Shown: positions 20,008 through 42,841, numbered from the stretch's first letter. The stretch is 64,000 nucleotides of DNA from an uncultured Ignavibacteriales bacterium (GCA_964464605.1 CAYXJN010000009.1:1-64000); one strand, 5' to 3'. Notes: generated from the sequence alone by a model not told the origin. A program made the numbers and translations.

Positions 20008-20012
20008 CGGTG

Positions 20013-20285: not shown

Positions 20286-20751
20286 GATGCAAGACTCTCC
20301 GTGAAATTTTCTCCGGTTGTGAAGTAACGGTCAATTCTTTCGTCTGCTTTTCCCGGCAGGAGCGGCAGTATCCCTGTACTTCCACTTTGTAAGAATCCGG
20401 TGTGAAATTGTCATTCTTTGTTTTTGGTTCGAGATACGGAAGAATATCAGACAAATCAAAATTCGAAACCTGTTTGCAGCTTAGACAATACAGATGCCCC
20501 TGCGGTGTGCGGGTTAATCGGTCGTAACGGGTGATACCGTCCCCGACACTCACTTCCGTTGCCAACCCCACTTCGCACATCAGTTTCAGATTCCGCCAGA
20601 CAGTGCTGTAACCGAGCGTACGATCAATTTTTCGCACCCGGTCATACAACTCATCCACAGAAACATGATTTCCCAACTCAAAAAAGGAACGGAAAATCAG
20701 CTCCCGCTGGGGAGTCATTTTGAATCCTTTGGTTTTGAGAAATTCCCGCAT
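20278..20751 (-). CDS. fur: Fur family transcriptional regulator
   Basis: MTPQRELIF...HxH-like metal site and two CxxC pairs (CLSC, CRSC). Overlaps feoA by 8 nt. Confidence 0.8.
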   Translation of the reverse strand: MREFLKTKGFKMTPQRELIFRSFFELGNHVSVDELYDRVRKIDRTLGYSTVWRNLKLMCEVGLATEVSVGDGITRYDRLTRTPQGHLYCLSCKQVSNFDLSDILPYLEPKTKNDNFTPDSYKVEVQGYCRSCREKQTKELTVTSQPEKISRRVLHHG

Positions 20752-23825: not shown

Positions 23826-24080
23826 TACCTTTCCTTCCTCGCCAGAATTACCAACCTCTGAGCAAGGGGGATGCCAACATCAGGCTTTTCAGTCCGCTTT
23901 TAGCCGAAGCCTATCGATGCTCGTAATGCATTGCAGAACAACAGGTTAAACGGTTACCACAAACGCGCTTTTCTTGCATACCGACCTTCCGGAAAATGCA
24001 TAGCCTGCTTTGAATTGCCTACTTTGCAATCGGTGACATAATGGACGGTTTTATAGCTCAAGCTTTCTATATTCTCTCCA

Positions 24081-26249
24081 ATGAGCGCTGAAACACTCAA
24101 ACGAGTTCTCAACTGCCACGGCTGCTGGATCATTCCCCTTTTTGCCTTAGCCTTTCGCTTTGCCTATTTGGCCTGTTATTCTCATTTGCCTGACTGGGAA
24201 TTACTCACGGTCGACAATTACTATCATCATCACTGGGCAGAATCGATCGCGGGCGGGAATCTTGTCGGCGATACGACCTATTTCCGCGCACCGCTCTATA
24301 TCTGGTCTCTCGGATTTCTCTATTGGTTGTTCGATTCTTCATGGTGGGTAGGAAGAATTTTCGGCATCGTAGTTGGCGCGGCATCGGTCGGTATGACCTG
24401 GATGTTAGCCTATCGTCTTTTTTCTCCTCGAACAGCAACTATTGCGGCATTGATACACGTGATCTGCCCGATTGCACTTTACCATGACGCCGAACTGCTC
24501 ACTGATTCCTTTTTCACCCTGACATTACAAATCGCGCTCTATTGTTCGCTTCGCTGGTTCGATGCGTTTGATGTGCGTAATGCTCTATGGGCAGGGCTCA
24601 CGCTTGGAATGGCCGCCATAGCCCGTCCTACGGCATTAGTATTAGTACCGCTTATTGTCGTTTTCGTTACCTGGCAATTCAAACATCGAAAACAGATGTT
24701 GGCTCAAATTGCATTGTTTGCAGCCAGTGTCGGGTTGATAGTAAGTATTACGTTGATTCGCAATCTGATAGTCGCGGATGATCCGGTGCTGATTGCTTCA
24801 CAGGGAGGAATCAATTTTTTTATCGGCAATAATCCGGATACCGATGGCGTCTCGGCGGTCATGCCTCCTCCCCTCGGCACAACCTGGCAATTGGCGGAAG
24901 TAAAACAGATCGCAGAGCAGACTGAGGGACATGTACTAAAACCGGGAGAGATATCTGATTATTGGTTTTCACAGGGGCTACACTGGGTTCGTGAGAACCC
25001 CGGAACGTTTCTGAAAAACTTCGGCATTAAACTCTATCGCCAGATAGCCAATTTTGAAATCCCGAACCAGCGGGACCTGAACCGATTTTTAGAAAAACTT
25101 CCCTTTCCGTTTCACTTGCCGATCACCTTCGGGATGCTTTTCCCCTTCGCAGTTTGGGGGATTCTGTGCGCATGGAACGAGAACACGAAAGCGCAGTTGT
25201 TAATCTTGACCCTTGTTCTCTATCTGTTTACCTCCGCCCTCTTTTTTGTGAACAGCCGTTTCCGACTTCCGTTGTTGCCTATCTTTTTCATTTTCGCCGT
25301 ATTCGGCTTGCTATTGTTCATACAGCAGATTCGCACGGAATCACGCGCTGCGTTAAAAGGTGCGCTCTGTCTTGTACTATGCGGTCTCGTTTCCTTTTCC
25401 TCCTTGTTTCCGCTCCCGGCATTAGCAAAAGTACAGGAACCGCTGGCAAAAGCGAGTCTCTGTATCGCCGAACGGCAATATGCCGAAGCAGTCGCAGCCG
25501 CACGAGAAGCTGTTTTGCACAATGATTCAACCATGAACAGCCACTTGCTCCTCGGCGTCGCTCATTTACGAAACGGAAATACCGATTCCGCATTGTTTCA
25601 CCTAAAGCAGGAAACCGCGCTTTTCCCCGACAACGAAAAAGGGCATATCAATCTTGCCTCTGCCCTGCAGGTCGCCGGAAACAGCAAAGATGCACTGATA
25701 GAAACACGAACAGCACTTTCGTTAGCCCCCTATGATCTCACTGTCAACCAACTGCTTGTTCGATTGACTGTTCCAGATACAACATTACCGATCACAGCTG
25801 TTTCTGCTATTGCCGATTCGGCGATGCAACGCACGAATGACAACCCATCAATCGCCGCCGAAATCGCCGTAGCCTTTACGCAGCGAAAAGAAAACAATCT
25901 CGCTGAACTTTTTTTACGCCGGGCTCTGCGATCAACACCTCCGTCTATTGAAACAGATGATGCCGCGTTTGAGCGCTACCATGTAAACAGCACGGAAAAC
26001 TGGAACAAGCAGTTAGCAAACATTCACTTCCAACTCGGGTTCCTTGCCGGACTGGCAGGTCGATATACGGAATCAATTGAGCAGAGCAAAATGGCAATTG
26101 CAAAGGATTCATTATTGCGAGATGCCTATATCAATCTTATCAGCGGGTATATTTCTACGGGACAAACAAGCCGGGCAGATTCAGTGTTACAGACTGCGCG
26201 TATCCGTTTCCCCCGCGATATCCGCTTGCAGCAGTTCCGATTCCCATAA
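24081..26249 (+). CDS. GT39/ArnT-like membrane glycosyltransferase fused to C-terminal TPR repeats
   Basis: About 12 TM helices at the N-terminus with a PMT/ArnT-like architecture. The C-terminal ~300 aa are TPR-like repeats (LLLGVAHLRNGNTDSALFHL...). Confidence 0.6.
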   Translation: MSAETLKRVLNCHGCWIIPLFALAFRFAYLACYSHLPDWELLTVDNYYHHHWAESIAGGNLVGDTTYFRAPLYIWSLGFLYWLFDSSWWVGRIFGIVVGAASVGMTWMLAYRLFSPRTATIAALIHVICPIALYHDAELLTDSFFTLTLQIALYCSLRWFDAFDVRNALWAGLTLGMAAIARPTALVLVPLIVVFVTWQFKHRKQMLAQIALFAASVGLIVSITLIRNLIVADDPVLIASQGGINFFIGNNPDTDGVSAVMPPPLGTTWQLAEVKQIAEQTEGHVLKPGEISDYWFSQGLHWVRENPGTFLKNFGIKLYRQIANFEIPNQRDLNRFLEKLPFPFHLPITFGMLFPFAVWGILCAWNENTKAQLLILTLVLYLFTSALFFVNSRFRLPLLPIFFIFAVFGLLLFIQQIRTESRAALKGALCLVLCGLVSFSSLFPLPALAKVQEPLAKASLCIAERQYAEAVAAAREAVLHNDSTMNSHLLLGVAHLRNGNTDSALFHLKQETALFPDNEKGHINLASALQVAGNSKDALIETRTALSLAPYDLTVNQLLVRLTVPDTTLPITAVSAIADSAMQRTNDNPSIAAEIAVAFTQRKENNLAELFLRRALRSTPPSIETDDAAFERYHVNSTENWNKQLANIHFQLGFLAGLAGRYTESIEQSKMAIAKDSLLRDAYINLISGYISTGQTSRADSVLQTARIRFPRDIRLQQFRFP

Positions 26250-26299: not shown

Positions 26300-28570
26300 C
26301 TATCGGAAATTCACATCTACTAATTCAGGATGTTCCGAGAGATACTTTTGTTCTTCTTCAGCCAGACGGCGCTTGTAGTTTTCCCGCTGAACATCTTTCG
26401 ACATCGGCATCGGCGCGTCATCATAACGAAGCCGTGCGGTAGGTGACGCATTACCTTCGTCGCTCAACCAATCCATAACGGAGTTGAATACCGTCTGCAT
26501 GGAAGTCTGTTCCATTACGACCGGCGTGAAATTGAAATGTACCGTGCGATACAAGCCGGTATTAAACCGATGGGCACACGGGGCACCCTGGAATGAATAC
26601 GGGCCGCCCAACGGATGTTGGTTTTCATAATATGAGCGATACAGGTACAAGCCTTCCGTTCCCGGCGTCAAACGCTGCGACCAGTTAACTTCCGGCAGGG
26701 CAGGTGCACCACGAAGACCATGTGCCGGGTCGCCAAGCCACGCCAGCGACGTGTAAATGGTATCAATTGGGTTACCATCTTCGTCAGTAATAACGTTCGT
26801 AAAGTTTCCAGACCATGAAGCAATGGCAGGGTTACCTAATCTCGCCGAATCAACAGAAACATCCGGCCAGCCCGGGTCTCCGGCTAACAATGAAAACCCG
26901 CCGACAAAATCTTCAATTCTGAAAATCGGGCAGACGGCATAGTTAAAGGCGTGACAGAAAAAGCCACCATACGCCATACCAACTACGCCAAAGTAGGTTG
27001 TATAGCCGGGGTTGCGCGGGGTAAGAATAAGCTCAGTTGCTTCATTGGGACCAGTCGGCGTTCCAACAGAAAGCGGCGAACGCGCGGTAACCCAGGCATT
27101 AACACCACCGTCAATAGCCGTAAACACCGGCGTATAATAATTTGCCTGGAAATCCAAGTTTGCTGCTGCAGTATTGTCGTTATACAGAATAACTACTTTG
27201 TGACTTAAGAGCCATGATATAGGGATTCGTCGGCCAGCGCCATAACGCTGAATACTGACATAGTCTCCAATACCGGTCAGCGTATCCATCACCGTATCGA
27301 AGACAACAGTAGGATCCCACGACGTCATGGCATTTTTGAAATATTCTTTAGTCGCCTGCTGGGAAATGGTCGGAGAATACAATGGATTCCCGCGAAATGT
27401 AAAGTCAACGACAATAGCACTGCGTTCATACCGTGGATCGATGACGTGAACGAAACGATAAGTCGGCACTAAATCAGGCACCTTGGCATCATCCCGACTG
27501 CGCAGCCAGAATAGGAACTGACGCTGGGTAGTGGTGGAACTGGTAGAATTGGCAAACACGTTATAGATCGTATCTGCTGTTTTCGTTACCCAACTATCCC
27601 CGTCAAATGAACTTGCAGCTAAACGATATTTCCCGGTGACCGGTGCGGTATCACTGACGAATGCGGGAGCGTTTGCCAGGAATGTTTCCTCGAAAACCCC
27701 ATAGTCGGCTCCAAAAATCTGGGCGATTCTGTTGGTATTGGCAACCGTTACCGTTACGGTATCGCAATCGGTGCTGTCCTCATTACAGTTAATGAGTGTA
27801 TCACCGATATCGAAAACTTTACCTTCACGAGTAACGAACCTTTTCACCACAAACTGCGTCCGCAGAGTAGTGACTTCTGCATCCGTATATGGTCCAAACA
27901 GTTTCCACTCGAATTCAAACGGCGGTGGATCAGACGGGTAGTCGATCGGGTCTGTCCCTTGCCAGTTAAAGCGAACACCGGTAATGATACCGCCTGCAGT
28001 CGGAGCATTCACATAGGGAGCATCTTTCGTTCCGGTCAAACTATTGAAGAGTAATGTTTGCGGCGGATTATCGTTACGGGAGAACAAGCGATATTCGACA
28101 TCAGAGGACTGACCCTCATTGTCATACGCCTGAATAAAAACATACTGTGATACGAATGAGAGTACCGGGTCAAGTGAATCCGCAACCAGAGAAATCGATA
28201 CCTGTGTCTGTTGGCTGTTCACACCGGTGGGGTCGACTTCAAGGTATACCCAAGCCGAAGAATCCGCGGCGGCGATATACTGCTCCGGCGTTTGCGCACC
28301 GAGCACAGAAACAGTAGCGACATGATAGCGATAGAAGGAAATCACACCGTCGACATCGGTGCCGTACCAATACACAACCGGGTTACGCGAAAATTGCTGG
28401 CCATCCGGCGGAATATTAACGAACTGAACAGACGGTTTGGTATTTGCCTTTAAATCACCGCTCAAATTCTTGGCGCATCCGGAAAACAGAACCGCGATCA
28501 TGGTCGCGACAAACAGAAGTATGCCCAGGAGCGGTCTGATATATGAATGAGTAAATGTCCGTGTTATCAT
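26300..28570 (-). CDS. Large hypothetical lipoprotein (756 aa), third gene of an outer-membrane module
   Basis: Signal peptide with lipobox LFSGC. No recognisable catalytic motifs. Lies 22 nt downstream of the PorV-like gene. Confidence 0.6.
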   Translation of the reverse strand: MITRTFTHSYIRPLLGILLFVATMIAVLFSGCAKNLSGDLKANTKPSVQFVNIPPDGQQFSRNPVVYWYGTDVDGVISFYRYHVATVSVLGAQTPEQYIAAADSSAWVYLEVDPTGVNSQQTQVSISLVADSLDPVLSFVSQYVFIQAYDNEGQSSDVEYRLFSRNDNPPQTLLFNSLTGTKDAPYVNAPTAGGIITGVRFNWQGTDPIDYPSDPPPFEFEWKLFGPYTDAEVTTLRTQFVVKRFVTREGKVFDIGDTLINCNEDSTDCDTVTVTVANTNRIAQIFGADYGVFEETFLANAPAFVSDTAPVTGKYRLAASSFDGDSWVTKTADTIYNVFANSTSSTTTQRQFLFWLRSRDDAKVPDLVPTYRFVHVIDPRYERSAIVVDFTFRGNPLYSPTISQQATKEYFKNAMTSWDPTVVFDTVMDTLTGIGDYVSIQRYGAGRRIPISWLLSHKVVILYNDNTAAANLDFQANYYTPVFTAIDGGVNAWVTARSPLSVGTPTGPNEATELILTPRNPGYTTYFGVVGMAYGGFFCHAFNYAVCPIFRIEDFVGGFSLLAGDPGWPDVSVDSARLGNPAIASWSGNFTNVITDEDGNPIDTIYTSLAWLGDPAHGLRGAPALPEVNWSQRLTPGTEGLYLYRSYYENQHPLGGPYSFQGAPCAHRFNTGLYRTVHFNFTPVVMEQTSMQTVFNSVMDWLSDEGNASPTARLRYDDAPMPMSKDVQRENYKRRLAEEEQKYLSEHPELVDVNFR

Positions 28571-28592
28571 GATTGTTTATCTCTTCCTTTTA

Positions 28593-29546
28593 TCAGAATG
28601 CCATGTTGAGCGTGAAACGGTGCACTTCAGTCAGGATACCGAAATCCTGAAATGCGTAATCGACACGCAATTCCCGCTCTTCACCGAACGGCACGCGAAG
28701 ACCGCCGCCGAGGGTGAAACCGTCAACATCGTAATTAAACCGACCGCCTGCGCGCAGGGCGACAAACTCTTTGAATATCCATTCAGCGCCGGCATTGAAT
28801 TTTTCAAGATTATCGGACGGATGCGAACCTTCAGCGGAGAATGTCAGTACATTGTCCGCCTGTTCAAGCACGTTAATCGATCCGCCGAACTTGAAGTTAA
28901 TTGGCAGCGGATAGGCATTGTCGATGAACCGCATATCCGGACCGAAATTAGTAATCGCCATGCCGATACGGAAATTACGGAAACCGGTGTTGTAGCTGGT
29001 ACCGACATCGGCTGACCAGCCGTTCGCACCGTAATCATGAGCGCGCTCAAAAATACCGCGAACGGTAAATCCGACTGAGAAGCGATCGGTCAAATACCGA
29101 CCGTAGCTAATACCTGCTGCAAGCGCGTTATAGGCAAATGAACGTCCGGTACCGTTGATGGTACCATCTTCGTAGGTCGTTTCAATCATATCACCCGATG
29201 TCAAACCGGTGGCACTGAAAGCCAGCACACCGCCGATAGACTCAAGCGGCAATCCGAATGCGGCAAACCCGAAACCGACATCAGCCGGCATCGCCACATA
29301 CGAAACAGCCATTTCTTTGCCGTACAGGGTAGTCAATCCGGCGGGATTATAATAAACTGCGGTAATGTCATCTACGACAGCGGTAAATGCTTCTGCCATT
29401 CCCATAGCGCGGGCAGATACGCCAAGCTCAAGAAACTGAGCGCCGGTAGTTCCGACTTTCGCCTGTCCAAAGGAATCACTTGCCGCAAACAGCAGCACAC
29501 CGAGTATCGGCAGCGCTATACTGCGCGACCATTTCCGGATACGCAT
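28593..29546 (-). CDS. PorV/PorQ/FadL-like outer-membrane beta-barrel protein
   Basis: Start placed at MRIRKWSRSIALPILGVLLFAASDSFGQA (signal peptide). Motifs ARAMGMAEAFTA and VYYNPAGL recall the PorV/PorQ/UPF0164 family; ends in a C-terminal Phe. Family assignment is from memory only. Confidence 0.4.
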   Translation of the reverse strand: MRIRKWSRSIALPILGVLLFAASDSFGQAKVGTTGAQFLELGVSARAMGMAEAFTAVVDDITAVYYNPAGLTTLYGKEMAVSYVAMPADVGFGFAAFGLPLESIGGVLAFSATGLTSGDMIETTYEDGTINGTGRSFAYNALAAGISYGRYLTDRFSVGFTVRGIFERAHDYGANGWSADVGTSYNTGFRNFRIGMAITNFGPDMRFIDNAYPLPINFKFGGSINVLEQADNVLTFSAEGSHPSDNLEKFNAGAEWIFKEFVALRAGGRFNYDVDGFTLGGGLRVPFGEERELRVDYAFQDFGILTEVHRFTLNMAF

Positions 29547-29623
29547 AGTTTTGCTGCGGATTCGTCGAGAAGATATCATACGATTCTCCAACTCTTCTGT
29601 CACAAACATCATCATATTCATGG

Positions 29624-32600
29624 TTAGAGATTAACCTCCAAACCGAGGCGAATCTGGCGGCCATAGTCCCAGTTACCCGGGTTTGCATCATACTCGGTGC
29701 CACCGTGCACAACGTCGTTCTGCACTTGCTGGGTGTCGGGGCGGCCGGTGCTGGCATACACTGAGTTTACATTTCTGCTATTGAAGATATTTTCAATCCA
29801 GACAATGAAACTGTAATCGATTCCGACGAAGTGGAAATCCTTATTGAAGCGAACGTCAAAGTTGACGATAGCGGGTTTGCGCAGTGAGTTGCGCTGAATA
29901 TCTTCACCGACGTTGGTCACGATACCCGGATAGTTACGATCCGGCGTGAACGGACGGCCGCTTTCGATAATCGTTTCAACCGACAATGACCAGCCGTTCG
30001 GTATCCGCATACCGAACATACGCGGCTTCACCGTGCTCGGAATGTAGACCTGCACCGCGCTCTTTAAGGAGTGGCGCACATCGTTATCCAAAGGCGCTTC
30101 GGCAAGCGGTTCACGGGACAATTCAAACGGGGTACCAAATTCACGGGAAGCTTCCGACGCTTTCCCGAAGGCAAACGCGTACGTATAGCTGACAGAGCCG
30201 TTCACGTATCCGCCGCCCCGTTTTTCAATCGTCAACTCGAACCCGCGGCTGCGGCCGTAGTCGGAGTTTTCGTAACGCTGTTTCTGAATATTTTCAATCG
30301 TCACGCTCTGACGGTTGATCTTGTCGAATTCATCTTTGAAGTAACCGGAAATGTCAGCCGAGTAGGTTTCGCTGATTGCATATTTAACACCGAATGAATA
30401 CTGAACGGTCTTTTGATAATCCAGATTGTAGTTTCCGATAACCGTGTTTGCATCGACCGAAACGGTGTTACGACGGAACATCTGCTCCAATTCCGGAAGC
30501 TGGAAGAAGTGTCCGTAGTTGAAGTAGACTTTCGCTTTGTCCGAAATTGGATAGGAGAACCCGACACGGGGAGACAATTTCTGACGATCACCCAGAATAA
30601 TACCGGAGCTCAAATCGTCATTTTGAGCGACAGGAACCAGTTTGTCTTTATCCTGAATAAAGAAGTCCCAGCGCAGACCCAATGATGCAATCATTGAACC
30701 GTATTCCACTTTATCGCGGAAGTATACTGTTCCCGCCCACGGCTCATAGGCAAAGATATCACGGAAAGAACCGCGGTCGGCATACGGACCACCGTCGTTA
30801 CGACCGGTGTACGCCAGGTACGGCGCTTCGATTTCTGTCTGCTCAAAATCAAGTCGCCGAATTGCGGTACCGGCTTTGAGTTCGTGACGTCCTACCTGCC
30901 AGAAGGTCTTCAACTCGGCGCGATAGGTTTTGGTCTTTTGCTGGTGCCAGACGGCATCGGTACTGTAATTCAACGGATCAAGGAAGCTTCCGGATCCGCC
31001 GTAATCATAAATTCCGTTACCATTCTTATCGGTGTACGGTTCACCGTCATCAAATCGCTGATTTGGTGCATCATAAATACCGTTACCATTGCGATCAAGG
31101 TACGGCACACCTAATGACCAGAGACTTCCCGGGCCATTGTGTAAACCGTCATGGTTCAAGTCCTGATTTTCCGGACCAGTCGAACGGATGAAAATATCGA
31201 CGCCGTTATCAAAGAGCCCGTTTCCGTTGCGATCGGTAAACGGTTCGCCGAGGATTGAATCACCGTCGATGTACGGTTCCGGCGTACGGTTATTGATCGG
31301 TGAAATACGTTCACCGTCCAAAATGCCGTTTCCGTTTTTGTCCTGAAGATAATCCCCTTCATCCCATACGCCGTTTTTATTCAGGTCAATGAACGCTTCA
31401 CCTTCAAGGTTATCGAGCTTGCCGTTATCATTAAAACGGAAGGATGACGGTGTCTGGGTGCCACCTTGCGCATTTTCTTCAATTAAGGCTTCGCCGAACG
31501 TATAGGCCGGACCGGTAAGGTCGGTGCCGTAAATAGCGGTGTCGGGGAAGATATTGATGACCGGTTCCGGTGCATCATACACGCCGTTTTCATTTCTGTC
31601 TTCATAGGTTTCCCATTCGTAATCAAACAGGAAATCATCAGGATTCAAGCCTTCACCCGGGTTGTTCGGGTCACCCGGCTGCTGGAGGAATTCGGCGTCA
31701 TTATATGAGAGCACTAATTCATAGTTCAAATTACGACGAACGGCCTGTGAAACTTCCATTGAAAGTGTCCGCCAAGCGTCCCGGTATACCGGAGCGGTAC
31801 GAGCTGAGTACCGGTAGTTCCAGTCGAAATACTGCCCTTCAGTCTGTGAGCGCTTGTATGAAAGAATCAAACGCAGGTCCTGACGGGGACGGAATTTCAG
31901 GTTCGACATATAGTAGTAGCGATTGATGCGGCGTTCCGGAATTTCAAAGCTCAACAGCTTGAAGTTTTCGTACGGACGATACGTAATGTCGGTGTTGTAA
32001 TCATCATACTGAAAGACACCGTCATTCTTTTCCATTTCCGCATACAGGTAATAGGTAAATTCTTTGTCCTCAAGAAACTTCATGCCCAGTGCCGGAAAAA
32101 CGCGTTTGGTTAAAATCGGATCCGGACCGGAAATAGAGAACCGGACGAAGTCACTGTTACGGGAATATTCATTGAGCGTCTTGTTGCCGAAATCGTCAGT
32201 GATATACTGCGCGTTGATACGGGTATTATCTTTATCACCGGTCTGCGTGGTGATTTTCACAACGCCGGAGAGCGCGTCACCGTATTCGGGATCGAACCCG
32301 TCTTTAATAACGGTGAATTCCTGAATCGAGCCAGATACTAACGAAAGGTTTGCACCTGCCTGCTGACCTAACCCACCCAGCAGATTGTTAATCGGCACAC
32401 CGTCAAGAATGTAGGCAACTTCACCGGCGCGACCACCGCGAATGAAAACCTGTCCTTGTGAGTTCTGCACCACACCGGCGACCTGCGTTAATAACTGGTC
32501 AACCGTCGTTACCGGCTGCTGTTTGATCGTTTCTTTGCTGATACTTTTTTCGTTGTTGGTCACGAATTTGTCGATGATATCCTTCGTGCCTTTGACGGTA

Positions 32601-32968
32601 ATCGTCTTACCGATATCAGTCGCTTCTGTTTTGGCAAGCTTCTGATTCATTTCCGTCGTCAAGTCAGTCTTAACTTCGATATCGGTAACTTCGATTGACG
32701 AGTATCCGATGTACGTAACTTTGACGGTGTAAATACCCGGTTCAACGCGCAAAATGGTGAATTCACCGTTCACGTCTGTTTTCGCACCGAGCGCTTTGCC
32801 GACGATAATAACAGACGCGCCGTATACCGCTTCACCCGTCTCTTTGTCGACAATCTTTCCCTTGATTTGCCCGTACGCGGCTGCGAAAACCGACACCGGC
32901 ATACATGCAGCAAGCACTAATACCAGAACGGCGGCTACTGCTGTGTGAATCCCTGACCTAACTTTCAT
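29624..32968 (-). CDS. TonB-dependent-receptor-like outer membrane protein (CarboxypepD_reg + plug + barrel) with inserted thrombospondin-type-3-like Ca-binding repeats
   Basis: Signal peptide. N-terminal CarboxypepD_reg-like fold (GKIVDKETGEAVYGASVIIVG...DVNGEF). Plug motif (VFIRGGRAGEVAYILDGVPIN). Five or more D-x-N/D-G-N-G-x-x-D repeats between residues ~450-650 (DRNGNGLFDNGVD, DKNGNGIYDYGG...). GGAGGT RBS 8 nt upstream. Confidence 0.65.
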   Translation of the reverse strand: MKVRSGIHTAVAAVLVLVLAACMPVSVFAAAYGQIKGKIVDKETGEAVYGASVIIVGKALGAKTDVNGEFTILRVEPGIYTVKVTYIGYSSIEVTDIEVKTDLTTEMNQKLAKTEATDIGKTITVKGTKDIIDKFVTNNEKSISKETIKQQPVTTVDQLLTQVAGVVQNSQGQVFIRGGRAGEVAYILDGVPINNLLGGLGQQAGANLSLVSGSIQEFTVIKDGFDPEYGDALSGVVKITTQTGDKDNTRINAQYITDDFGNKTLNEYSRNSDFVRFSISGPDPILTKRVFPALGMKFLEDKEFTYYLYAEMEKNDGVFQYDDYNTDITYRPYENFKLLSFEIPERRINRYYYMSNLKFRPRQDLRLILSYKRSQTEGQYFDWNYRYSARTAPVYRDAWRTLSMEVSQAVRRNLNYELVLSYNDAEFLQQPGDPNNPGEGLNPDDFLFDYEWETYEDRNENGVYDAPEPVINIFPDTAIYGTDLTGPAYTFGEALIEENAQGGTQTPSSFRFNDNGKLDNLEGEAFIDLNKNGVWDEGDYLQDKNGNGILDGERISPINNRTPEPYIDGDSILGEPFTDRNGNGLFDNGVDIFIRSTGPENQDLNHDGLHNGPGSLWSLGVPYLDRNGNGIYDAPNQRFDDGEPYTDKNGNGIYDYGGSGSFLDPLNYSTDAVWHQQKTKTYRAELKTFWQVGRHELKAGTAIRRLDFEQTEIEAPYLAYTGRNDGGPYADRGSFRDIFAYEPWAGTVYFRDKVEYGSMIASLGLRWDFFIQDKDKLVPVAQNDDLSSGIILGDRQKLSPRVGFSYPISDKAKVYFNYGHFFQLPELEQMFRRNTVSVDANTVIGNYNLDYQKTVQYSFGVKYAISETYSADISGYFKDEFDKINRQSVTIENIQKQRYENSDYGRSRGFELTIEKRGGGYVNGSVSYTYAFAFGKASEASREFGTPFELSREPLAEAPLDNDVRHSLKSAVQVYIPSTVKPRMFGMRIPNGWSLSVETIIESGRPFTPDRNYPGIVTNVGEDIQRNSLRKPAIVNFDVRFNKDFHFVGIDYSFIVWIENIFNSRNVNSVYASTGRPDTQQVQNDVVHGGTEYDANPGNWDYGRQIRLGLEVNL

Positions 32969-33245
32969 CGTCGTCTATTACCTCCAACTTTCGGTTGGCA
33001 TCTCATCTCATACCTATAAGTGATTTCTACAGCGTGGGATACAGCGGTTTCTTAGAACCGAAACAGAGTACTGTTTGAAATCTGTAACGTTACCAAAAAA
33101 CGGGGGTTAGAACCTTTTGTCTCTATCACCCATCTGCTTATCTCACAGCCAGTAATAGTATTCTGACAGGCGGTAGGCCGTCAAGCGATATTTTCCTATC
33201 ACCGGCAATCACTTGTGAAAATGACTCCCCAGACCGCCGATTTGT

Positions 33246-34031
33246 TTAATCGGGAGACCGCTTGCTCAGTAGATCCCCCCGAATTTGAACCAGCCGGTTG
33301 GCCAAAAATTCCTCTGCGCGACCCGACAATACGGCATCTTTTGCCCTTGAAACGCCAAACTTTCCGCTCATGGTTGATGCGAATAATCTGGAGAGCGTTT
33401 CGAATTCAGCCGATGTACTCTGTTCAAGTGATTGCATCCGCTCAACCGTTTCCGGCAGCCGTAAAGCAGGATGCGACGCAACTCCATGCAGCTTAATAGC
33501 TCCGTGCTGAAAGAAGACCTGCTGTGTCACCCTGGCAGCCGATGCCACCACCTTAGCCTGCTCAGAAACGATTTCATAGCGCGCCTGTGATGCAAAACAG
33601 GGGGCCTTGTGCAAATCATCGGAAACGCCCGCAAACCGCTTTGTTGCCCGCAAAAACTGCGCTTGCAGCCCGGTTTGGTTAATAAATGAAACGAGTCCCT
33701 GAGCAACTGTCGCCGCTATACCCGATGATTTTCTTGTACCCGCGGTATCCAGATTGATAGCGATCGCATAGGTTAATTCTGAAGTGTCATGGTACAGCGC
33801 CCGCCCGCCGGTGATTCTTCGGATGACCGGAGTCACCCCCACCTGCTGCCAATCAAGTGCCGATTCTTTGTTTTGATTATAACCAATCGTAATAGTCCCC
33901 GGCAGCCAGGAATACGTTCGTAACAATACTGCACCGGATTGTTGCGAAGCCTGCCACATCAGCGCTTCGTCGAACGCCATGTTAAAAGCGGGTTCCGCCT
34001 CAAAATGCCTGAAAAACTGAACGTCAACCAT
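33246..34031 (-). CDS. Lipoate-protein ligase / octanoyltransferase family protein (BPL_LplA_LipB)
   Basis: RRITGGRALYHD motif of the biotin/lipoate A/B protein ligase family; 261 aa. Confidence 0.7.
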   Translation of the reverse strand: MVDVQFFRHFEAEPAFNMAFDEALMWQASQQSGAVLLRTYSWLPGTITIGYNQNKESALDWQQVGVTPVIRRITGGRALYHDTSELTYAIAINLDTAGTRKSSGIAATVAQGLVSFINQTGLQAQFLRATKRFAGVSDDLHKAPCFASQARYEIVSEQAKVVASAARVTQQVFFQHGAIKLHGVASHPALRLPETVERMQSLEQSTSAEFETLSRLFASTMSGKFGVSRAKDAVLSGRAEEFLANRLVQIRGDLLSKRSPD

Positions 34032-34105: not shown

Positions 34106-37060
34106 TTACTGCTGTTTTTCAGCGAATTGATCTGGATCGATATTATGCTGCTTGAGTTTCAAGCGAAGGGTCGACTCCGGAATATTCAAACGGGCCGCTG
34201 CATGTTTTTTCACGCCGCCTGATTCCTGCATCGCTTTCATAATAAAGCGGCGCTCATGATTGTTCAGATAATCATACAACGTGAAGGATTCCGAGAAAGT
34301 AACCTCCGAGCCATTGCCATTACCGTTTCCATTACTGGAGTGAGTAATCGGAACTGGAGCAACGCAGGCGCTTGAATCGATACGGGTCGAGAGCAGATTG
34401 GTGCCGATCTCTTCCGCATCACCGGATAACAAAACCAATTTCTTAATTTCATTGTCCAGTTCACGGATATTGCCGGGCCAGTCATAGGCAATCAATTTCT
34501 GCAGCGCTGCCGGATGTAACCGTTTTCCGCTGCCGGAAAGCAGGTTGGCAATAAGAAGTGGAATATCCTCTTTTCGTTCACGCAAGGGGGGCAGACGGAA
34601 ACTGAGGGCGGAAAGACGATAGTACAAGTCCTGACGGAACTGTCCACTTGCCATAAGTTCTTTTAAATCACGATTGGTTGCCGAAATAACGCGCACATCC
34701 ACCTTACGCGGCTGCGTTTCACCGAGGCGAACGATCTCTTTGTTTTCCAACACCCGGAGAATTTTGGCTTGAACATTAAGCGGCATATCGCCGATTTCAT
34801 CAAGAAAGAATGTTCCGCCGTTCGCTTCTTCAAAAAGTCCGGCTTTGTCTCGGTCGGCACCGGTAAATGCTCCGCGATGATACCCGAATAGTTCGGATTC
34901 AAGCAGTGTTTCCGGAAGCGCGGCACAGTTGACTGAAATAAAGCGGCTTTCTTTTCTGTCTGAATTAAAATGAATCGCGCGGGCTAATAGGTCCTTTCCG
35001 CAGCCGGTTTCCCCTTCGATACTGACGGAAATATTCGAATTTACAATCTGGCGAACCTGTGCGAGAATATCGAGCATTTCCCTGTTCTGCGTAATGATAT
35101 TCGGGAAGGCTACTTTCTCCATCAACTGCGTGGTCAAGCGGCGGTTGTCTTCAAGCAGGCGGTTCTTTTGGAACTCAGTGAACTTGTAGGCGATCAGGTC
35201 GGAAAATCCTACCGCAAAATTCAATTCGACCTGACTGAACGTATTAATGCTATTGGTATTCGTCAGTTTGTCGAGATACAAGAATCCGCTGCTGCCGTCG
35301 CTTAATGTAAACGGCACAACTAAAATACAAGCCACTACCACCGGCATTTCGGCAAATAACTCTTTGATGAATGGGTCACGGCGGCAATCAATGAGCAGCG
35401 TCGGACGGGTTTTCGAAATCTCCTGTCCTACCAGCCGCTCAAATCCGGCTTTGAATTTCTGTTCACCAGACGGGGTCATATCGAACGTCGACACTAACAC
35501 GCGCTGACCAGCTTCCTGCGCAAGCATAATGGCGCGGTCAGAACCGGTACGAACCCGGACGATTTCGAGAATATTTTTGAGTTCCCCTTCTTTAATCTGC
35601 GAATACTCAGCGGGGGTAAACAGATTGCCAAAAATCTTGTATTCATTTTCAGAAGAAATAGAAAGCGCCACCGCCTGTTCAGACAATGTGGTTAACAATC
35701 TATTCACTGCGCGCACCCGGGCGGATTCATCAAGTGCTGAGAAGATACGTTCCGCGCGGCTCAAATGACGGAATCCTGAACCAAGGTCTCCACCCTGACA
35801 GGAGAGCATACCGGTACGGAATTCGGTTTCCGCAATCCAGTATTCCGATTTCAACTGTTTGAACAAACGAATAGCCTGTTCACCGACACTCCGCACATGC
35901 TCGCGAGAGGCATTGCGGTCGGTCATCAGAATATCGATAAAGGAAACATGAGCGCGGGCATATTCGTACGGGTCACCCAATTCTCTCAATAGATCAAGCG
36001 CCTGACGAATATATTCATTGGCATCATCCTGCTTATTCTGGGCAGCGAAGACACGCGCGATCGCATGTTTCGCCATGGCTATTTCCGCTTTTTCACCAAG
36101 TTCAATCGACAAATCGAGCGCTTTTTGCGCGTACTTCATCGCTTCGCCGACATTATCTAAAGCGAGTTCAACTTCGGCCAAACGGCGGACGGTCTGCGAA
36201 ATCAACGCCGAATTCGGAGCAAGCAACGTTCCTTTGCTGTAGGCATCGTTCAAGATTGCTTTAGCGCGGAAATACTCCCCTTTTTCATAGGCCAGTTCAC
36301 CGGCGTACTCAAGGTAAATAATCGCTTCACGCTTGGCATCGATACGGGTTATCACGACATGCGCTTTATCCAACTGCTTGCTTGCCAGCGCAAACTGACG
36401 GCGGCGAAGGGCAAGATACCCGAGCGATAACAAGTTCGCCGCCTGCGAGAATTCTTCGTTATGCGCTTCCGAATAACTGAGCGCTTCCGTTAATGCTGTT
36501 TCCGCTTCCGGCCATTCCCCAAGCTGTAAGCGAATACGGCCAATATTACCGACTATCTGTAAACGTTTGCGCGGATTGTTTTGCACCAACTCAAGCGCTT
36601 CGGTCAAAAATCCAAGCGCCATCCGGTATTCACTTCGAATGAACGCGACACGACCGAGTTCATTTAACGAATCGACCTGGCCGACCTGATCGGATGCCCG
36701 ACGAAACGCCGCAAGCGCATCCCGCGCGCGAATATCTGCGTTACGAAGATCACCGACCGCACTGTATGATTTGGATAAATGACGCTGAACGGCGCCGTAA
36801 CGACGATTTAAGGGAAGATCAGCAAGTATTCTCGCTGCTTTCAGACCGGACTCAATGGCTTGGCGATAATGCCCCTCTATATATGACTTCTCCGCCTGCA
36901 AAAGCAGGAAAAGACCAAGCTCATGTTCGCTTGCAGCAAATTCTGCTTCAGTCAACAAAGACAGATCAGTAATAGCAGCCTGATTCTGGTGCTGACGAAA
37001 AAGCTCTTCGATCGCTAAAAGGCGACCATCAAAGGACAACGACTGTGAGGGTGAGGCCAT
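34106..37060 (-). CDS. Sigma-54-dependent transcriptional activator with N-terminal TPR-repeat sensor region
   Basis: About 450 aa of TPR-like repeats. AAA+ sigma-54 interaction domain (GETGCGKDLLARAIH, GAFTGA, DEIGDMPLNVQAKILRVLE). (NG)4 linker, then a C-terminal Fis-type HTH. Confidence 0.85.
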   Translation of the reverse strand: MASPSQSLSFDGRLLAIEELFRQHQNQAAITDLSLLTEAEFAASEHELGLFLLLQAEKSYIEGHYRQAIESGLKAARILADLPLNRRYGAVQRHLSKSYSAVGDLRNADIRARDALAAFRRASDQVGQVDSLNELGRVAFIRSEYRMALGFLTEALELVQNNPRKRLQIVGNIGRIRLQLGEWPEAETALTEALSYSEAHNEEFSQAANLLSLGYLALRRRQFALASKQLDKAHVVITRIDAKREAIIYLEYAGELAYEKGEYFRAKAILNDAYSKGTLLAPNSALISQTVRRLAEVELALDNVGEAMKYAQKALDLSIELGEKAEIAMAKHAIARVFAAQNKQDDANEYIRQALDLLRELGDPYEYARAHVSFIDILMTDRNASREHVRSVGEQAIRLFKQLKSEYWIAETEFRTGMLSCQGGDLGSGFRHLSRAERIFSALDESARVRAVNRLLTTLSEQAVALSISSENEYKIFGNLFTPAEYSQIKEGELKNILEIVRVRTGSDRAIMLAQEAGQRVLVSTFDMTPSGEQKFKAGFERLVGQEISKTRPTLLIDCRRDPFIKELFAEMPVVVACILVVPFTLSDGSSGFLYLDKLTNTNSINTFSQVELNFAVGFSDLIAYKFTEFQKNRLLEDNRRLTTQLMEKVAFPNIITQNREMLDILAQVRQIVNSNISVSIEGETGCGKDLLARAIHFNSDRKESRFISVNCAALPETLLESELFGYHRGAFTGADRDKAGLFEEANGGTFFLDEIGDMPLNVQAKILRVLENKEIVRLGETQPRKVDVRVISATNRDLKELMASGQFRQDLYYRLSALSFRLPPLRERKEDIPLLIANLLSGSGKRLHPAALQKLIAYDWPGNIRELDNEIKKLVLLSGDAEEIGTNLLSTRIDSSACVAPVPITHSSNGNGNGNGSEVTFSESFTLYDYLNNHERRFIMKAMQESGGVKKHAAARLNIPESTLRLKLKQHNIDPDQFAEKQQ

Positions 37061-42753: not shown

Positions 42754-42841
42754 ACAGTCCCTTTCCTATCACATCGGGCACGTTGTCCCGGGGCATCAGT
42801 CCTTGCCTTTGTACGAAAGTTTTGCAATCAGGTTGCAAAAC

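What the first reader, a model, noticed from the sequence alone, without database searches (positions are those of the whole stretch)
26300..32968. Uncharacterised three-gene outer-membrane module: TBDR-like barrel with thrombospondin-type-3 Ca-binding repeats, PorV/FadL-like barrel, large lipoprotein
A 1114-aa protein combines a CarboxypepD_reg domain, a TonB-receptor plug and a barrel, but contains a ~200-aa insert of D-x-D/N-G-N-G-x-x-D calcium-binding repeats and ends in Leu rather than an aromatic residue. It is followed, with a tight gap, by a PorV/PorQ-like beta-barrel and a 756-aa lipoprotein with no recognisable domains. The arrangement echoes SusC/SusD-type or T9SS-shuttle logic but matches neither. 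It could be a novel surface uptake or secretion-anchoring system.
Basis: partly seen in the sequence, partly recalled or inferred. Interest (0 to 1): 0.7.

Follow-up and report, generated by a model that had tools for sequence, protein, structure and literature searches.

The report
Conserved TonB-receptor/PorV-like/lipoprotein outer-membrane operon
Three adjacent genes of a Zixibacteria genome encode a conserved, uncharacterised set of outer-membrane proteins (probably one complex): a TonB-type gated barrel with a calcium-loop surface domain, a PorV-like barrel and a big lipoprotein. Versions of it occur across several little-studied FCB-group phyla, and it pairs two kinds of protein not known to work together.

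Summary
Three minus-strand genes form a tight operon:
- a TonB-dependent receptor (29624-32968, 1114 aa)
- a PorV/PorQ-family barrel (28593-29621)
- a lipoprotein (26300-28570, 756 aa)

The window is from Zixibacteria. In one locus per species, PorV-like lies directly upstream of the lipoprotein in 68/72 loci and the receptor upstream of that in 60/61. The receptor and PorV-like protein are about 63-64% identical across the phylum; the lipoprotein is about 38%.

The receptor has a conserved TonB box. Its roughly 245-aa insert maps to extracellular loop 4 and carries seven DxNxNGxxD calcium-type loops (0.03-0.07 expected by chance). No thrombospondin type 3 model matches it.

The lipoprotein models confidently as two FN3/Ig-like domains plus a ThuA/GATase1-like domain without a conserved catalytic Cys.

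Relatives labelled Gemmatimonadota, Cloacimonadota, Calditrichota and TA06 keep a receptor + PorV-like core. It is often next to ExbB-ExbD-TonB and an ~800-aa protein with a type IX-style C-terminal domain.

It is not SusC/SusD, and the receptor is not a PorF orthologue. My best reading (0.45) is a TonB-powered surface uptake complex that uses a PorV-like barrel as docking adaptor. A secretion or anchoring role is not excluded. I rate it a new variant of known kinds.

The parts
29624..32968 (-). TonB-dependent-receptor-type gene, 1114 aa: signal peptide, CarboxypepD_reg N-terminal extension, TonB box, plug, 22-strand barrel
   Evidence: ORF and translation. Pfam domains. Foldseek top hits are solved TonB-dependent transporters such as YddB, PqqU, BtuB and XusA, E about 1e-17. 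Orthologues are 52-66% identical (near-full-length matches) in 61 Zixibacteria species loci.
32627..32866 (-). CarboxypepD_reg-like N-terminal extension (aa 35-114)
   Evidence: Pfam PF13715 and PF13620, E about 1e-15. PDB profile hits to the N-terminal domains of a TonB-dependent receptor (6ytc) and a SusC homologue (9hfj).
32591..32611 (-). Putative TonB box, KTITVKG (aa 120-126); family consensus x-I-x-V-x-A
   Evidence: It lies between the N-terminal extension and the plug. I122 is nearly invariant and V124 invariant in 53 orthologues, several of which read TITVTA. Its resemblance to E. coli TonB boxes (FhuA DTITVTA) comes from general knowledge and was not tested.
32261..32557 (-). Plug domain (aa 138-236)
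   Evidence: Pfam PF07715, E 1.4e-12. The family profile hits the colicin I receptor plug. It is the most conserved segment, 74% mean identity to the window protein. The AlphaFold model of this part is poor.
30956..31681 (-). Extracellular loop-4 insert (aa ~430-671) with seven DxNxNGxxD calcium-type loops
   Evidence: Motif positions and shuffle controls. The insert lies between strands at aa 413-429 and 672-691. Counting 22 strands from either end makes this loop 4, on the outer side (inference from DSSP, moderate confidence). pLDDT is 80-87 over aa 530-670. Motif number varies from 1 to 12 in relatives.
28593..29621 (-). PorV/PorQ-family outer-membrane barrel gene (342 aa as listed; probable start at Met26, nt 29546)
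   Evidence: NCBIfam NF033709 scores 185.5 bits, cutoff 90. PorQ (89.6/220) and PorV (49/250) equivalogs are not reached. Only weak PDB hit is PorV 6h3i_F, E 0.0099. Orthologues are 52-71% identical within Zixibacteria and 38-48% in other lineages.
26300..28570 (-). Lipoprotein gene, 756 aa; lipobox Cys31 at nt 28478-28480
   Evidence: Translation. 163 full-length homologues, all named 'hypothetical', none with a Pfam domain. Cys31 is invariant. AlphaFold model has pLDDT 87.5 and pTM 0.82.
27446..28435 (-). Two FN3/Ig-like beta-sandwich domains of the lipoprotein (aa ~46-375)
   Evidence: Secondary structure of the model. Foldseek hits are tandem FN3 domains and adhesin Ig domains. This is the part shared with lipoproteins of other lineages: L089 32% and L090 27% identity over about 200 aa.
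26471..27433 (-). ThuA/class-I glutamine-amidotransferase-like alpha/beta domain of the lipoprotein (aa ~380-700), followed by a C-terminal helix
33155..33184 (-). Sigma-70-type promoter of the operon (-35 TTGACG at 33184-33179, -10 TACTAT at 33160-33155), followed by a ~190-nt leader
   Evidence: The motif CTTGACTT (extended form CGCTTGAC in 48) preceded by an A-rich tract occurs about 170-260 nt (mostly 200-260) upstream of the receptor ATG in 54/60 loci, followed by TATnTT after about 17 nt. No sigma-54 element is found there. No Rfam family matches.
33246..34031 (-). LplA/LipB-superfamily gene (261 aa) immediately upstream; a conserved neighbour whose membership in the system is unproven
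   Evidence: Pfam PF21948, E 1.2e-22. It lies upstream of the receptor in 54/55 Zixibacteria loci. It is also next to the receptor or its Ton genes in L085, L088, L089 and L091 from other lineages.

Best explanation
The three genes are co-transcribed from their own strong sigma-70-type promoter. I propose that they build one outer-membrane complex.

Components:
- Core: a TonB-energised, plug-gated 22-strand barrel. Its extracellular loop 4 has grown into a calcium-stabilised domain of seven DxNxNG loops.
- Adaptor: a 14-strand PorV/PorQ-family barrel sits beside it as a docking platform. PorV and PorQ hold PorU and PorZ in this way, and the FadL-like BamG holds the surface lipoprotein BamH.
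- Partner: the lipoprotein is the surface-exposed partner. Its conserved N-terminal FN3/Ig-like domains attach it to the barrels. Its ThuA/GATase1-like domain is rich in conserved aromatic and acidic residues and lacks a conserved nucleophile Cys, so it would bind a ligand, probably a glycan or other polymer fragment.

Proposed mechanism: substrate is captured at the surface by the lipoprotein and the loop-4 domain. TonB then pulls on the TonB box, the plug moves, and the substrate enters the periplasm. This is a 'utilisome'-like importer built from different parts than SusC/SusD.

Shown: gene linkage, conservation, domain and fold assignments, the TonB-box motif, and Ton genes beside relatives.

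Inferred: that the proteins form a physical complex, that the lipoprotein faces outward, the direction of transport, and the kind of substrate.
For: 1. Operon. Gaps are 22 nt and at most 77 nt. A conserved promoter lies only upstream of the receptor.
2. Linkage in one locus per species: 68/72, 60/61.
3. TonB-dependent transporter identity. Plug and N-terminal extension by Pfam, fold matches to solved transporters, and a conserved TonB-box-like I-x-V motif.
4. Ton genes beside relatives. Relatives 30-35% identical over the aligned region sit directly beside ExbB-ExbD-ExbD-TonB in L088, L091 and L093.
5. PorV/PorQ family membership. Orthologues stay linked to the receptor in lineages labelled Gemmatimonadota, Cloacimonadota and Calditrichota.
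6. Precedents. TonB transporters with adjacent surface lipoproteins appear among the fold hits: XusA-XusB and BtuB-BtuG. A FadL-fold barrel serves as the platform for a surface lipoprotein, with bamG2-bamH2 in one operon (PMC12578637). PorV-like barrels retain partner CTDs (PMC10202324).
7. Lipoprotein fold. FN3/Ig domains typical of surface proteins, plus a ThuA-like domain.
8. Neighbours. Secreted hydrolases with type IX C-terminal domains lie next to the module in several lineages: S8 here, M6 in L003, BNR in L085. This resembles a substrate-utilisation locus.
Against: - No PorV-family protein is known in any uptake system. All characterised members act in type IX secretion.
- The receptor and PorV-like protein are the most conserved genes of the neighbourhood (63-64% against 38-56% for the others), and the promoter looks constitutive. 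That fits a housekeeping machine better than a nutrient receptor.
- No riboswitch and no sigma-54 promoter element were found upstream that would point to a nutrient; a Fur box was not searched for.
- The lipoprotein has no acidic residues in the six positions after the Cys. It therefore lacks the Bacteroidota surface-export signal (rule quoted in PMC12578637), and its outward orientation is unproven.
- The plug is poorly modelled and the receptor model is only moderate, pLDDT 63.5.
- No complex prediction could be run.
Confidence: 0.45

Rival explanations
1. Export or surface-assembly device. The TonB-powered barrel serves as a conduit or assembly factor for proteins carrying type IX-style C-terminal domains. 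The PorV-like barrel is their CTD-binding shuttle or anchor. This would be a compact relative of type IX secretion, energised by ExbBD-TonB instead of PorLM, and comparable to Oar-dependent secretion of the subtilisin-like protease PopC in Myxococcus.
For: - Every characterised PorV-family member binds CTDs in type IX secretion.
- In other lineages an ~800-aa protein 'X' is encoded between the receptor and the PorV-like gene. Its C-terminus has a typical CTD-like pattern (VVPNPY...IRVFTLAGDLV...GIYLF...KFVVLK) and weakly matches the PorZ CTD (E about 1e-3).
- Further CTD proteins follow the PorV-like gene in L085, L087 and L093. An S8 protease with a TIGR04183 domain lies nearby in 49/50 Zixibacteria loci.
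- Oar has the same N-terminal extension/plug/barrel architecture, needs its TonB box for PopC secretion, and is associated with its own dedicated Ton system (PMC6434023).
- PorF, a receptor-like barrel, is required for type IX secretion.
- High conservation and a housekeeping-type promoter suit a machine.
Against: - Nearly all known TonB-dependent transporters import.
- The receptor is not a PorF orthologue. Only the N-terminal extension and plug align, at most 78 bits, against 520 bits between two true PorFs.
- The nearby S8 gene has its own sigma-54 promoter in 55/55 loci, and the operon does not.
- In most Zixibacteria, X genes lie elsewhere, as multi-copy arrays.
- Whether these genomes carry a canonical SprA/PorKLMN system was not tested.
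Confidence: 0.25
2. No dedicated complex. The receptor is an ordinary nutrient transporter. The PorV-like protein is simply the organism's general type IX PorV or PorQ. The lipoprotein is unrelated. Their adjacency reflects inherited gene order.
For: - A seven-gene stretch (sigma-54 activator, LplA-like, the trio, a PMT_2/TPR gene, S8) is syntenic across Zixibacteria. Gene order is therefore generally well kept here.
- The sigma-54 activator demonstrably relates to the S8 gene and not to the trio. Not all neighbours are functionally linked.
Against: - Receptor-PorV-like linkage survives in lineages where the receptor is only 30-35% identical and all other neighbours differ.
- Gaps are operon-like.
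- The two barrels are conserved to the same unusually high degree.
Confidence: 0.15
3. Cofactor salvage. The transporter imports lipoate, or a lipoylated or related acyl compound, for the LplA-like ligase encoded just upstream. The FadL-fold PorV-like barrel would handle the hydrophobic ligand.
For: - An LplA/LipB-superfamily gene lies directly upstream of the receptor or its Ton genes in 54/55 Zixibacteria loci. The same holds in four of the nine other-lineage contexts examined: L085, L088, L089 and L091.
- In L085 it follows gcvT-gcvH-gcvP.
- FadL-family barrels transport hydrophobic molecules (general knowledge).
Against: - The ligase-like protein scores far below the LplA model cutoffs, 50 bits against 480.
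- A 1114-aa receptor with a 245-aa surface domain, a 756-aa lipoprotein and CTD partners is out of proportion for a 206-Da ligand.
- No riboswitch or known regulator was found.
- In the window a 277-nt gap containing a separate promoter divides the two genes.
Confidence: 0.07

Closest known systems
SusC/SusD and RagA/RagB-type uptake complexes of Bacteroidota (and the larger 'utilisomes')
   Same: A TonB-dependent barrel with a CarboxypepD_reg-like N-terminal extension is encoded directly upstream of large cell-surface partner protein(s), with secreted hydrolases nearby.
   Different: - The SusC/RagA model is not reached: 58 bits against a cutoff of 368.
- There is no SusD-like helical lipoprotein.
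- A PorV-family barrel is an added component.
- A large calcium-loop domain sits in loop 4.
BtuB-BtuG and XusA-XusB (Bacteroides TonB transporters capped by non-SusD surface lipoproteins)
   Same: A generic TonB-dependent transporter fold is paired with an adjacent-encoded surface lipoprotein of unrelated fold. Both appear among the Foldseek hits of the receptor model.
   Different: - About 10% identity.
- No PorV-like barrel in those systems.
- Their lipoprotein folds differ from the FN3 + ThuA-like architecture here.
PorV-PorU and PorQ-PorZ pairs of the type IX attachment complex; PorP/SprF with type B cargo
   Same: - Same protein family for the 14-strand barrel (NF033709 met).
- In relatives the barrel gene is adjacent to a gene for a CTD-bearing surface protein (X), as porV is to porU.
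   Different: - PorV and PorQ equivalog scores are not reached.
- The barrel is linked to a TonB-dependent receptor and Ton genes, which is not described for type IX secretion.
- In Zixibacteria the adjacent partner is a lipoprotein, not a CTD protein.
BamA-BamG-BamH of the Bacteroidota BAM complex (PMC12578637)
   Same: A FadL-fold 14-strand barrel binds the back of a larger barrel and serves as platform for a surface lipoprotein. The bamG2-bamH2 pair is encoded in a putative operon.
   Different: - The large barrel here is a plugged TonB transporter, not BamA (no POTRA domains).
- By sequence the small barrel is nearer PorV than any BAM chain: only PorV was hit in the PDB.
Oar of Myxococcus xanthus (TonB-dependent transporter required for PopC secretion, PMC6434023)
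   Same: - CarboxypepD_reg extension + TonB box + plug + barrel.
- Relatives are encoded beside a dedicated ExbB-ExbD-TonB set.
- A subtilisin-family protease is in the picture.
   Different: - No direct sequence comparison with Oar could be made.
- No PorV-like or lipoprotein partner is mentioned in the Oar passages read.
- The protease here carries a type IX CTD and has separate sigma-54 control.
PorF (PG0534), the receptor-like barrel required for type IX secretion in P. gingivalis
   Same: Same overall architecture. The N-terminal extension and plug are homologous: 29% over 233 aa, E 4e-14.
   Different: There is no barrel-level similarity to the window protein or to any of its 150 closest family representatives. 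Two true PorFs share 35% over their full length. It is not an orthologue.

Membership tests
TonB-dependent transporter | N-terminal plug domain inside the barrel | tested here: met
   Pfam Plug PF07715, E 1.4e-12, aa 138-236. The family profile hits the colicin I receptor plug.
TonB-dependent transporter | 22-strand beta-barrel | tested here: met
   The AlphaFold model has 22 long strands after the plug (pLDDT 63.5). Foldseek E about 1e-17 to YddB, PqqU, BtuB and FhuA.
TonB-dependent transporter | TonB box upstream of the plug | tested here: inconclusive
   A conserved x-I-x-V-x-A motif (KTITVKG; TITVTA in orthologues) lies at aa 120-126. Its identification rests on resemblance to E. coli boxes. 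Binding was not tested.
TonB-dependent transporter | Functional coupling to ExbB-ExbD-TonB | not testable with these tools
   No Ton genes are in the window. Relatives in L088, L091 and L093 are adjacent to ExbB-ExbD-ExbD-TonB.
TonB-dependent transporter | C-terminal aromatic residue of the last strand | tested here: not met
   The protein ends in Leu. Of the 27 orthologues displayed (53 aligned), all end in Leu or Ile except one that ends ...NLM. Relatives from other lineages end in F or W.
SusC/RagA family with SusD partner | Score at or above the TIGR04056 cutoff | tested here: not met
   58.1 bits against a cutoff of 368.25. Only the N-terminal 220 aa match.
SusC/RagA family with SusD partner | Adjacent SusD-like (helical, TPR-like) lipoprotein | tested here: not met
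   No SusD Pfam hit. The model is beta-sandwich plus an alpha/beta ThuA-like domain.
PorV/PorQ family | Score at or above the NF033709 cutoff | tested here: met
   185.5 bits against a cutoff of 90, covering the full model length.
PorV (type IX shuttle) or PorQ orthologue | Equivalog model cutoffs | tested here: not met
   PorQ 89.6 bits (cutoff 220), PorV 49 (250), PorV2 55 (325).
PorV/PorQ family | Binding of a type IX C-terminal domain | not testable with these tools
   There is only contextual support. A CTD-bearing X gene is adjacent to the orthologous barrel gene in L085, L087, L090, L093 and L094.
Type IX secretion system | Core machinery (SprA/Sov, PorK/L/M/N) in the genome | not tested
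   Of the ~42 window ORFs scanned against Pfam, none matched a T9SS core family; five gave no hit at all. Whole genomes could not be scanned.
Type IX secretion system | Cargo with a type A sorting domain | tested here: met
   The neighbouring S8 protease scores 39.9 bits on TIGR04183, cutoff 23.
PorF (PG0534) orthologue | Full-length similarity, barrel included | tested here: not met
   Only aa 14-238 align (63.5 bits). The barrel gives E 0.049. hhalign covers 204 columns only. Two true PorFs score 520 bits against each other.
Oar subclass of TonB-dependent transporters | CarboxypepD_reg N-terminal extension before the plug | tested here: met
   PF13620 and PF13715 at aa 34-114. The subclass is defined this way in PMC6434023.
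Oar subclass of TonB-dependent transporters | Role in protein secretion | not testable with these tools
   No Oar sequence was available and no functional assay is possible.
Thrombospondin type 3 repeats | Match to Pfam TSP_3 | tested here: not met
   No TSP_3 hit at E<=10 on the isolated insert. The only weak hits are an EF-hand calcium sensor (E 0.03) and SdrD_B (E 0.08).
Class I glutamine amidotransferase / ThuA-like fold | Fold similarity | tested here: met
Class I glutamine amidotransferase / ThuA-like fold | Catalytic Cys-His-Glu triad | tested here: not met
   No invariant or nearly invariant Cys occurs between aa 380 and 700 in 82 sequences. His651 and Glu626 are conserved, but their spatial arrangement was not checked.

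The most novel reading that the evidence does not exclude
The receptor + PorV-like pair is a second, TonB-powered route for handling proteins with type IX-style C-terminal domains in FCB candidate phyla. The plugged 22-strand barrel would act as translocon or assembly gate. The PorV-like barrel would act as CTD receptor. ExbBD-TonB would replace the PorLM motor. [quoted passage not shown]
Probability: 0.17. Interest if true: 0.9.

Novelty: new variant of a known kind. Interest (0 to 1): 0.62.

Why it matters
TonB-dependent transporters and PorV-family barrels are each well studied, but always in separate systems: nutrient uptake for the first and type IX secretion for the second.

Here they are fixed together in one operon. 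The pair is among the most conserved envelope genes of an entire candidate phylum. The same pairing, with Ton genes and CTD proteins, recurs in lineages labelled Gemmatimonadota, Cloacimonadota and Calditrichota.

If it is an importer, FCB bacteria outside Bacteroidota have built a SusCD-like surface capture machine from different parts, with a PorV-like barrel as lipoprotein or CTD-protein anchor. That would extend the emerging rule from the Bacteroidota BAM complex that FadL-fold barrels serve as platforms for surface proteins.

If it is an exporter, it would be a new protein secretion route.

Either way it assigns a testable role to three large families currently named 'hypothetical protein': the lipoprotein, X, and this receptor clade. 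These occur in organisms that are abundant in sediments and known only from metagenomes.

Tried and rejected
1. Ordinary SusC/SusD pair. Rejected on model scores and on the lipoprotein fold.
2. Compositional artefact for the repeats. Rejected by shuffles and by column conservation.
3. Thrombospondin type 3 identity. Rejected.
4. PorF orthology. I obtained PG0534 and a Weeksella PorF from the supplement of PMC7323717. Only the N-terminal extension and plug are similar.
5. Control by the neighbouring TPR/sigma-54 activator. Rejected. The -24/-12 element is upstream of the S8 gene in 55/55 loci and at background level upstream of the receptor (a first attempt had an indexing bug).
6. Riboswitch in the ~200-nt leader.
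   - Rfam gathering scan found nothing in the window.
   - RNAalifold on 36 leaders gave no consensus structure. The alignment is poor (25% identity), so this is inconclusive rather than negative.
7. Lipoprotein as an active amidotransferase. There is no conserved Cys in the domain.
8. Homology between the Zixibacteria lipoprotein and protein X of other lineages. None by BLASTP or hhalign.
9. PDB sequence or profile searches for the lipoprotein and X. No hits.
10. AlphaFold-database fold search. The library was unavailable.
11. Literature. No paper in the held library was found that links Zixibacteria to T9SS, and no description of a receptor-PorV-like operon turned up in the other searches.
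12. Ton and type IX core genes. None in the window.

Full report
**What is there**

The region holds three minus-strand ORFs exactly as described: 29624-32968 (1114 aa), 28593-29621 (342 aa) and 26300-28570 (756 aa).

The first gene is a TonB-dependent receptor type:
- Pfam finds a CarboxypepD_reg-like domain (aa 35-114), a plug (aa 138-236) and a C-terminal OMP_b-brl_4 match.

The second gene is a PorV/PorQ-family barrel:
- It reaches the family model NF033709 (185.5 bits, cutoff 90).
- It does not reach the equivalog models for PorQ, PorV or PorV2.
- Its only, weak, PDB hit by sequence is PorV (E 0.0099).

The third gene is a lipoprotein:
- It has a signal peptide ending LFSGC.
- It has no Pfam, NCBIfam or PDB sequence match, either as a single sequence or as an 82-sequence profile.

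Spacing is operon-like. The gap between the PorV-like gene and the lipoprotein is 22 nt. The receptor and the PorV-like gene are 2 nt apart as listed, and about 77 nt apart if translation starts at Met26, where the signal peptide begins.

**The organism and conservation**

Every close homologue of the lipoprotein and of the receptor is labelled Zixibacteria or GN15, or comes from an unnamed MAG.

A scan of one genome per GTDB species found 112 genomes with the lipoprotein, and 80 loci were kept. tblastn of the window's proteins against those loci gave the following counts, wherever enough flank exists:

| Arrangement | Loci |
|---|---|
| PorV-like gene directly upstream of the lipoprotein | 68/72 |
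| Receptor upstream of the PorV-like gene | 60/61 |
| LplA/LipB-superfamily gene upstream of the receptor | 54/55 |
| PMT_2/TPR gene downstream on the other strand | 57/57 |
| S8 subtilase downstream | 49/50 |

Median identity to the window proteins:

| Protein | Median identity |
|---|---|
| Receptor | 63% |
| PorV-like barrel | 64% |
| Sigma-54 activator | 56% |
| S8 protease | 49% |
| LplA-like protein | 42% |
| PMT_2 protein | 40% |
| Lipoprotein | 38% |

It is unusual for two outer-membrane barrels to be the best-conserved genes of their neighbourhood.

**Anatomy of the receptor**

An alignment of 53 orthologues shows a conserved motif between the N-terminal extension and the plug. It reads KTITVKG here and TITVTA in several orthologues, with I122 nearly invariant and V124 invariant. 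It looks like a TonB box; that resemblance to E. coli boxes is from general knowledge.

The plug is the most conserved segment, at 74% mean identity to the window protein.

The roughly 245-aa insert carries seven matches to D-x-[DN]-x-[DN]-G-x-x-[DNE]:
- Shuffles that keep composition give 0.03-0.07.
- The D/N/G positions are invariant or nearly so.
- No Pfam TSP_3, EF-hand or dockerin model matches the isolated insert. These are generic calcium-type loops, not thrombospondin type 3 repeats.

The AlphaFold model of the receptor is only moderate (pLDDT 63.5, with the plug poorly modelled). The barrel strands and the insert (pLDDT 80-87 over aa 530-670) are better. Counting 22 strands from either end places the insert between strands 7 and 8. 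That is extracellular loop 4, an inference from the secondary-structure string.

Foldseek against the PDB returns solved TonB-dependent transporters of many specificities at about 10% identity. They include Bacteroides XusA and BtuB, which were solved with their surface lipoproteins.

The terminal Leu is real, but it is confined to the core Zixibacteria clade. Six relatives from other lineages end in F or W.

**Anatomy of the lipoprotein**

With 82 homologues as alignment, the model is confident (pLDDT 87.5, pTM 0.82). It has three parts:
- The N-terminal half is two beta-sandwich domains. Foldseek matches them to tandem FN3 and adhesin Ig domains.
- A long C-terminal helix follows.

No Cys is conserved in the alpha/beta domain, whereas many Trp, Tyr, Asp and Arg are. 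I read it as a binding module rather than an amidotransferase.

The mature N-terminus (CAKNLSG) has no acidic residues in the first six positions. It therefore lacks the Bacteroidota surface-export signal quoted in PMC12578637. Outward orientation is plausible from the FN3/Ig domains but is not shown.

**The module is wider than Zixibacteria**

A full HMMER scan of 1.84 billion representatives gave 1031 proteins at E<=1e-30. Cluster names place the nearest non-core relatives (31-44% identity) in divergent Zixibacteria, Gemmatimonadota, Cloacimonadota, Calditrichota, TA06 and 'FCB group' MAGs.

Their contexts, compared by BLASTP:

| Locus | Gene order |
|---|---|
| L085 | gcvTHP - LplA-like - receptor - X(856) - PorV-like - BNR/CTD protein |
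| L087 | receptor - X(805) - PorV-like - two CTD proteins |
| L090 | receptor - X(802) - PorV-like - lipoprotein(559) |
| L089 | LplA-like - receptor - PorV-like - lipoprotein(670) |
| L093 | ExbB-ExbD-ExbD-TonB-TonB - cytochrome-like - receptor - X(838) - PorV-like - two CTD proteins |
| L094 | FadL-like - receptor - X(661) - PorV-like |
| L088 | LplA-like - NHL - receptor - ExbB-ExbD-ExbD-TonB - X |
| L091 | LplA-like - ExbB-ExbD-ExbD-TonB-TonB - receptor |

Points from these comparisons:
- The PorV-like proteins are 38-48% identical to the window's.
- The lipoproteins of L089 and L090 share only the N-terminal ~200 residues with it, at 27-32% identity.
- X is a separate family of about 800 aa with no Pfam or PDB match. 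Its C-terminus has the pattern of a type IX sorting domain and weakly matches the PorZ CTD. It is not detectably related to the lipoprotein.
- X is abundant in Zixibacteria too: 2292 hits, the best 120 of them 54-68% identical, all named 'hypothetical'. There it usually lies elsewhere. In genome CP070777 it forms a tandem array of four next to M16 and S8 peptidases. In loci L025 and L029 it sits between the sigma-54 activator and the LplA-like gene.
- The number of calcium-type loops in loop 4 ranges from 1 to 12 among lineages.

The conserved core is therefore receptor + PorV-like barrel. The partners are variable surface proteins, and there is a frequent physical link to a Ton system.

**Regulation**

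A canonical sigma-54 -24/-12 element (YGGCAY-N5-TTGC) lies 23-71 nt upstream of the S8 protease start in 55/55 loci, against 1/55 in shuffles. It is at background frequency upstream of the receptor, the LplA-like gene and the PorV-like gene. The neighbouring TPR/sigma-54 activator therefore most likely drives the protease, not the trio.

The trio has its own conserved promoter. An A-rich tract is followed by CGCTTGACTT, about 17 nt of spacer, and TATnTT. It lies about 170-260 nt (mostly 200-260) upstream of the ATG in 54/60 loci. In the window the -35 is at 33184-33179 and the -10 at 33160-33155.

The long leader contains two semi-conserved motifs, TGATAGGGTTGGG and CCCTCAC, before a strong Shine-Dalgarno sequence. 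No Rfam family matches. RNAalifold found no consensus fold on a poor alignment.

**How it most likely works**

I favour a TonB-powered surface complex (confidence 0.45):
- The PorV-like barrel is a docking adaptor beside the receptor.
- The lipoprotein (and X, where it is encoded in the module) is the exposed capture partner.
- Together with the calcium-stabilised loop-4 domain, it hands substrate to the plug-gated channel.

The pieces all have precedents:
- TonB transporters with adjacent surface lipoproteins.
- PorV-like barrels that retain the CTDs of partner proteins.
- The FadL-fold BamG, which binds the back of BamA and carries the surface lipoprotein BamH, with a bamG2-bamH2 operon.

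Secreted hydrolases with type IX domains sit next to the module in several lineages. That gives the loci the look of substrate-utilisation loci.

Against this reading:
- No uptake system is known to use a PorV-family protein.
- The strong conservation and the housekeeping-type promoter suit a machine.
- No nutrient-responsive element was found.

**Rivals**

1. Export or surface assembly of CTD proteins, Oar-like or type IX-linked (0.25).
   - It is supported by the exclusive association of PorV-family proteins with CTD handling, the embedded X gene, the trailing CTD genes, and the Oar and PorF precedents.
   - I tested the PorF link directly with sequences taken from the supplement of PMC7323717. 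Only the N-terminal extension and plug are homologous (29% over 233 aa). No member of the window's receptor family shows barrel-level similarity, whereas two true PorFs share 35% over their full length. The receptor is not a PorF orthologue.
2. Mere conserved synteny without a complex (0.15). It is weakened because receptor-PorV-like linkage persists where all other neighbours differ.
3. Lipoate-type salvage, suggested by the recurrent LplA-like neighbour (0.07). It seems out of proportion to the size of the apparatus.

**Novelty and limits**

No paper found in the held library links Zixibacteria to T9SS, and the other searches turned up no description of a receptor-PorV-like operon. All family members are named 'hypothetical' or a generic 'TonB-dependent receptor'. 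I rate the finding a new variant of known kinds: a TonB transporter with surface partners, and a PorV-family adaptor.

Limits of this analysis:
- No multimer prediction could be run.
- Whole genomes could not be scanned for type IX core genes.
- The AlphaFold-database fold libraries were unavailable.
- Direction of transport, substrate and lipoprotein orientation remain inferences.

Noticed in passing
window 23862-23876 (-), upstream of the S8 gene 20919-23825; also loci L003-L083: A canonical sigma-54 -24/-12 promoter (TGGCATCCCCCTTGC here) lies 23-71 nt upstream of the S8 subtilase/type IX-CTD gene in 55/55 Zixibacteria loci, against 1/55 in shuffles. It is probably the target of the conserved TPR-containing sigma-54 activator at 34106-37060.
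   Followed up: yes
window 32969-33200 (-); loci L001-L083, upstream of the receptor gene: The receptor operon has a conserved A-tract + CGCTTGACTT/-10 promoter and a ~200-nt leader. The leader has two semi-conserved motifs, TGATAGGGTTGGG and an anti-Shine-Dalgarno-like CCCTCAC. No Rfam hit and no consensus fold on a poor alignment, so a possible unrecognised leader element remains open.
   Followed up: partly
window 33246-34031 (-); L085 4777-5481, L088 5832-6635, L089 6168-6722, L091 482-1330: A divergent LplA/LipB-superfamily gene (far below LplA model cutoffs) sits immediately upstream of the receptor or its Ton genes. This holds in Zixibacteria and in four of the nine other-lineage contexts examined. 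The reason for this persistent adjacency is unexplained.
   Followed up: partly
L085 10475-13045, L087 11860-14277, L090 8182-10590, L093 11186-13702, L025 1699-4320, L095 10001-20844: A large uncharacterised family 'X' (~800-870 aa) has no Pfam or PDB match and a type IX-like C-terminal domain weakly matching the PorZ CTD. It is embedded between receptor and PorV-like genes in several phyla. In a complete Zixibacteria genome it forms a tandem four-copy array next to M16/S8 peptidases.
   Followed up: partly
window 24081-26249 (+): A PMT_2 (ArnT/PMT-type glycosyltransferase) + TPR gene converges on the lipoprotein gene. It keeps this position and orientation in 57/57 loci. A link to surface glycoconjugates was not examined.
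   Followed up: no
window 17593-20751 (-): Fur-family regulator (20278-20751) and FeoB (17593-20007) lie just downstream of the S8 gene. The same Fur-FeoA-FeoB order appears in L003. No Fur box was sought upstream of the receptor.
   Followed up: no
window 50429-56207 (-): A type IV pilus-type cluster (PilC-like T2SSF, PilT- and PilB-like T2SSE ATPases) lies next to a Roadblock/LC7 protein and a small Ras/Arf-like GTPase, a pair resembling MglB/MglA.
   Followed up: no
window 37697-48584 (-): The upstream neighbourhood is rich in envelope-biogenesis genes: GT9 heptosyltransferase, TolC-like OEP, MacB-type permease, HlyD-type adaptor, lipid A acyltransferase and a SurA-like double-PPIase protein.
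   Followed up: no
window 3692-5293 (+); L093 6381-7952: Multihaem cytochrome-like proteins turn up twice. One, with MtrC/MtrF-like and PKD domains, is in the window. The other lies directly upstream of the receptor in the Cloacimonetes-labelled locus L093.
   Followed up: no
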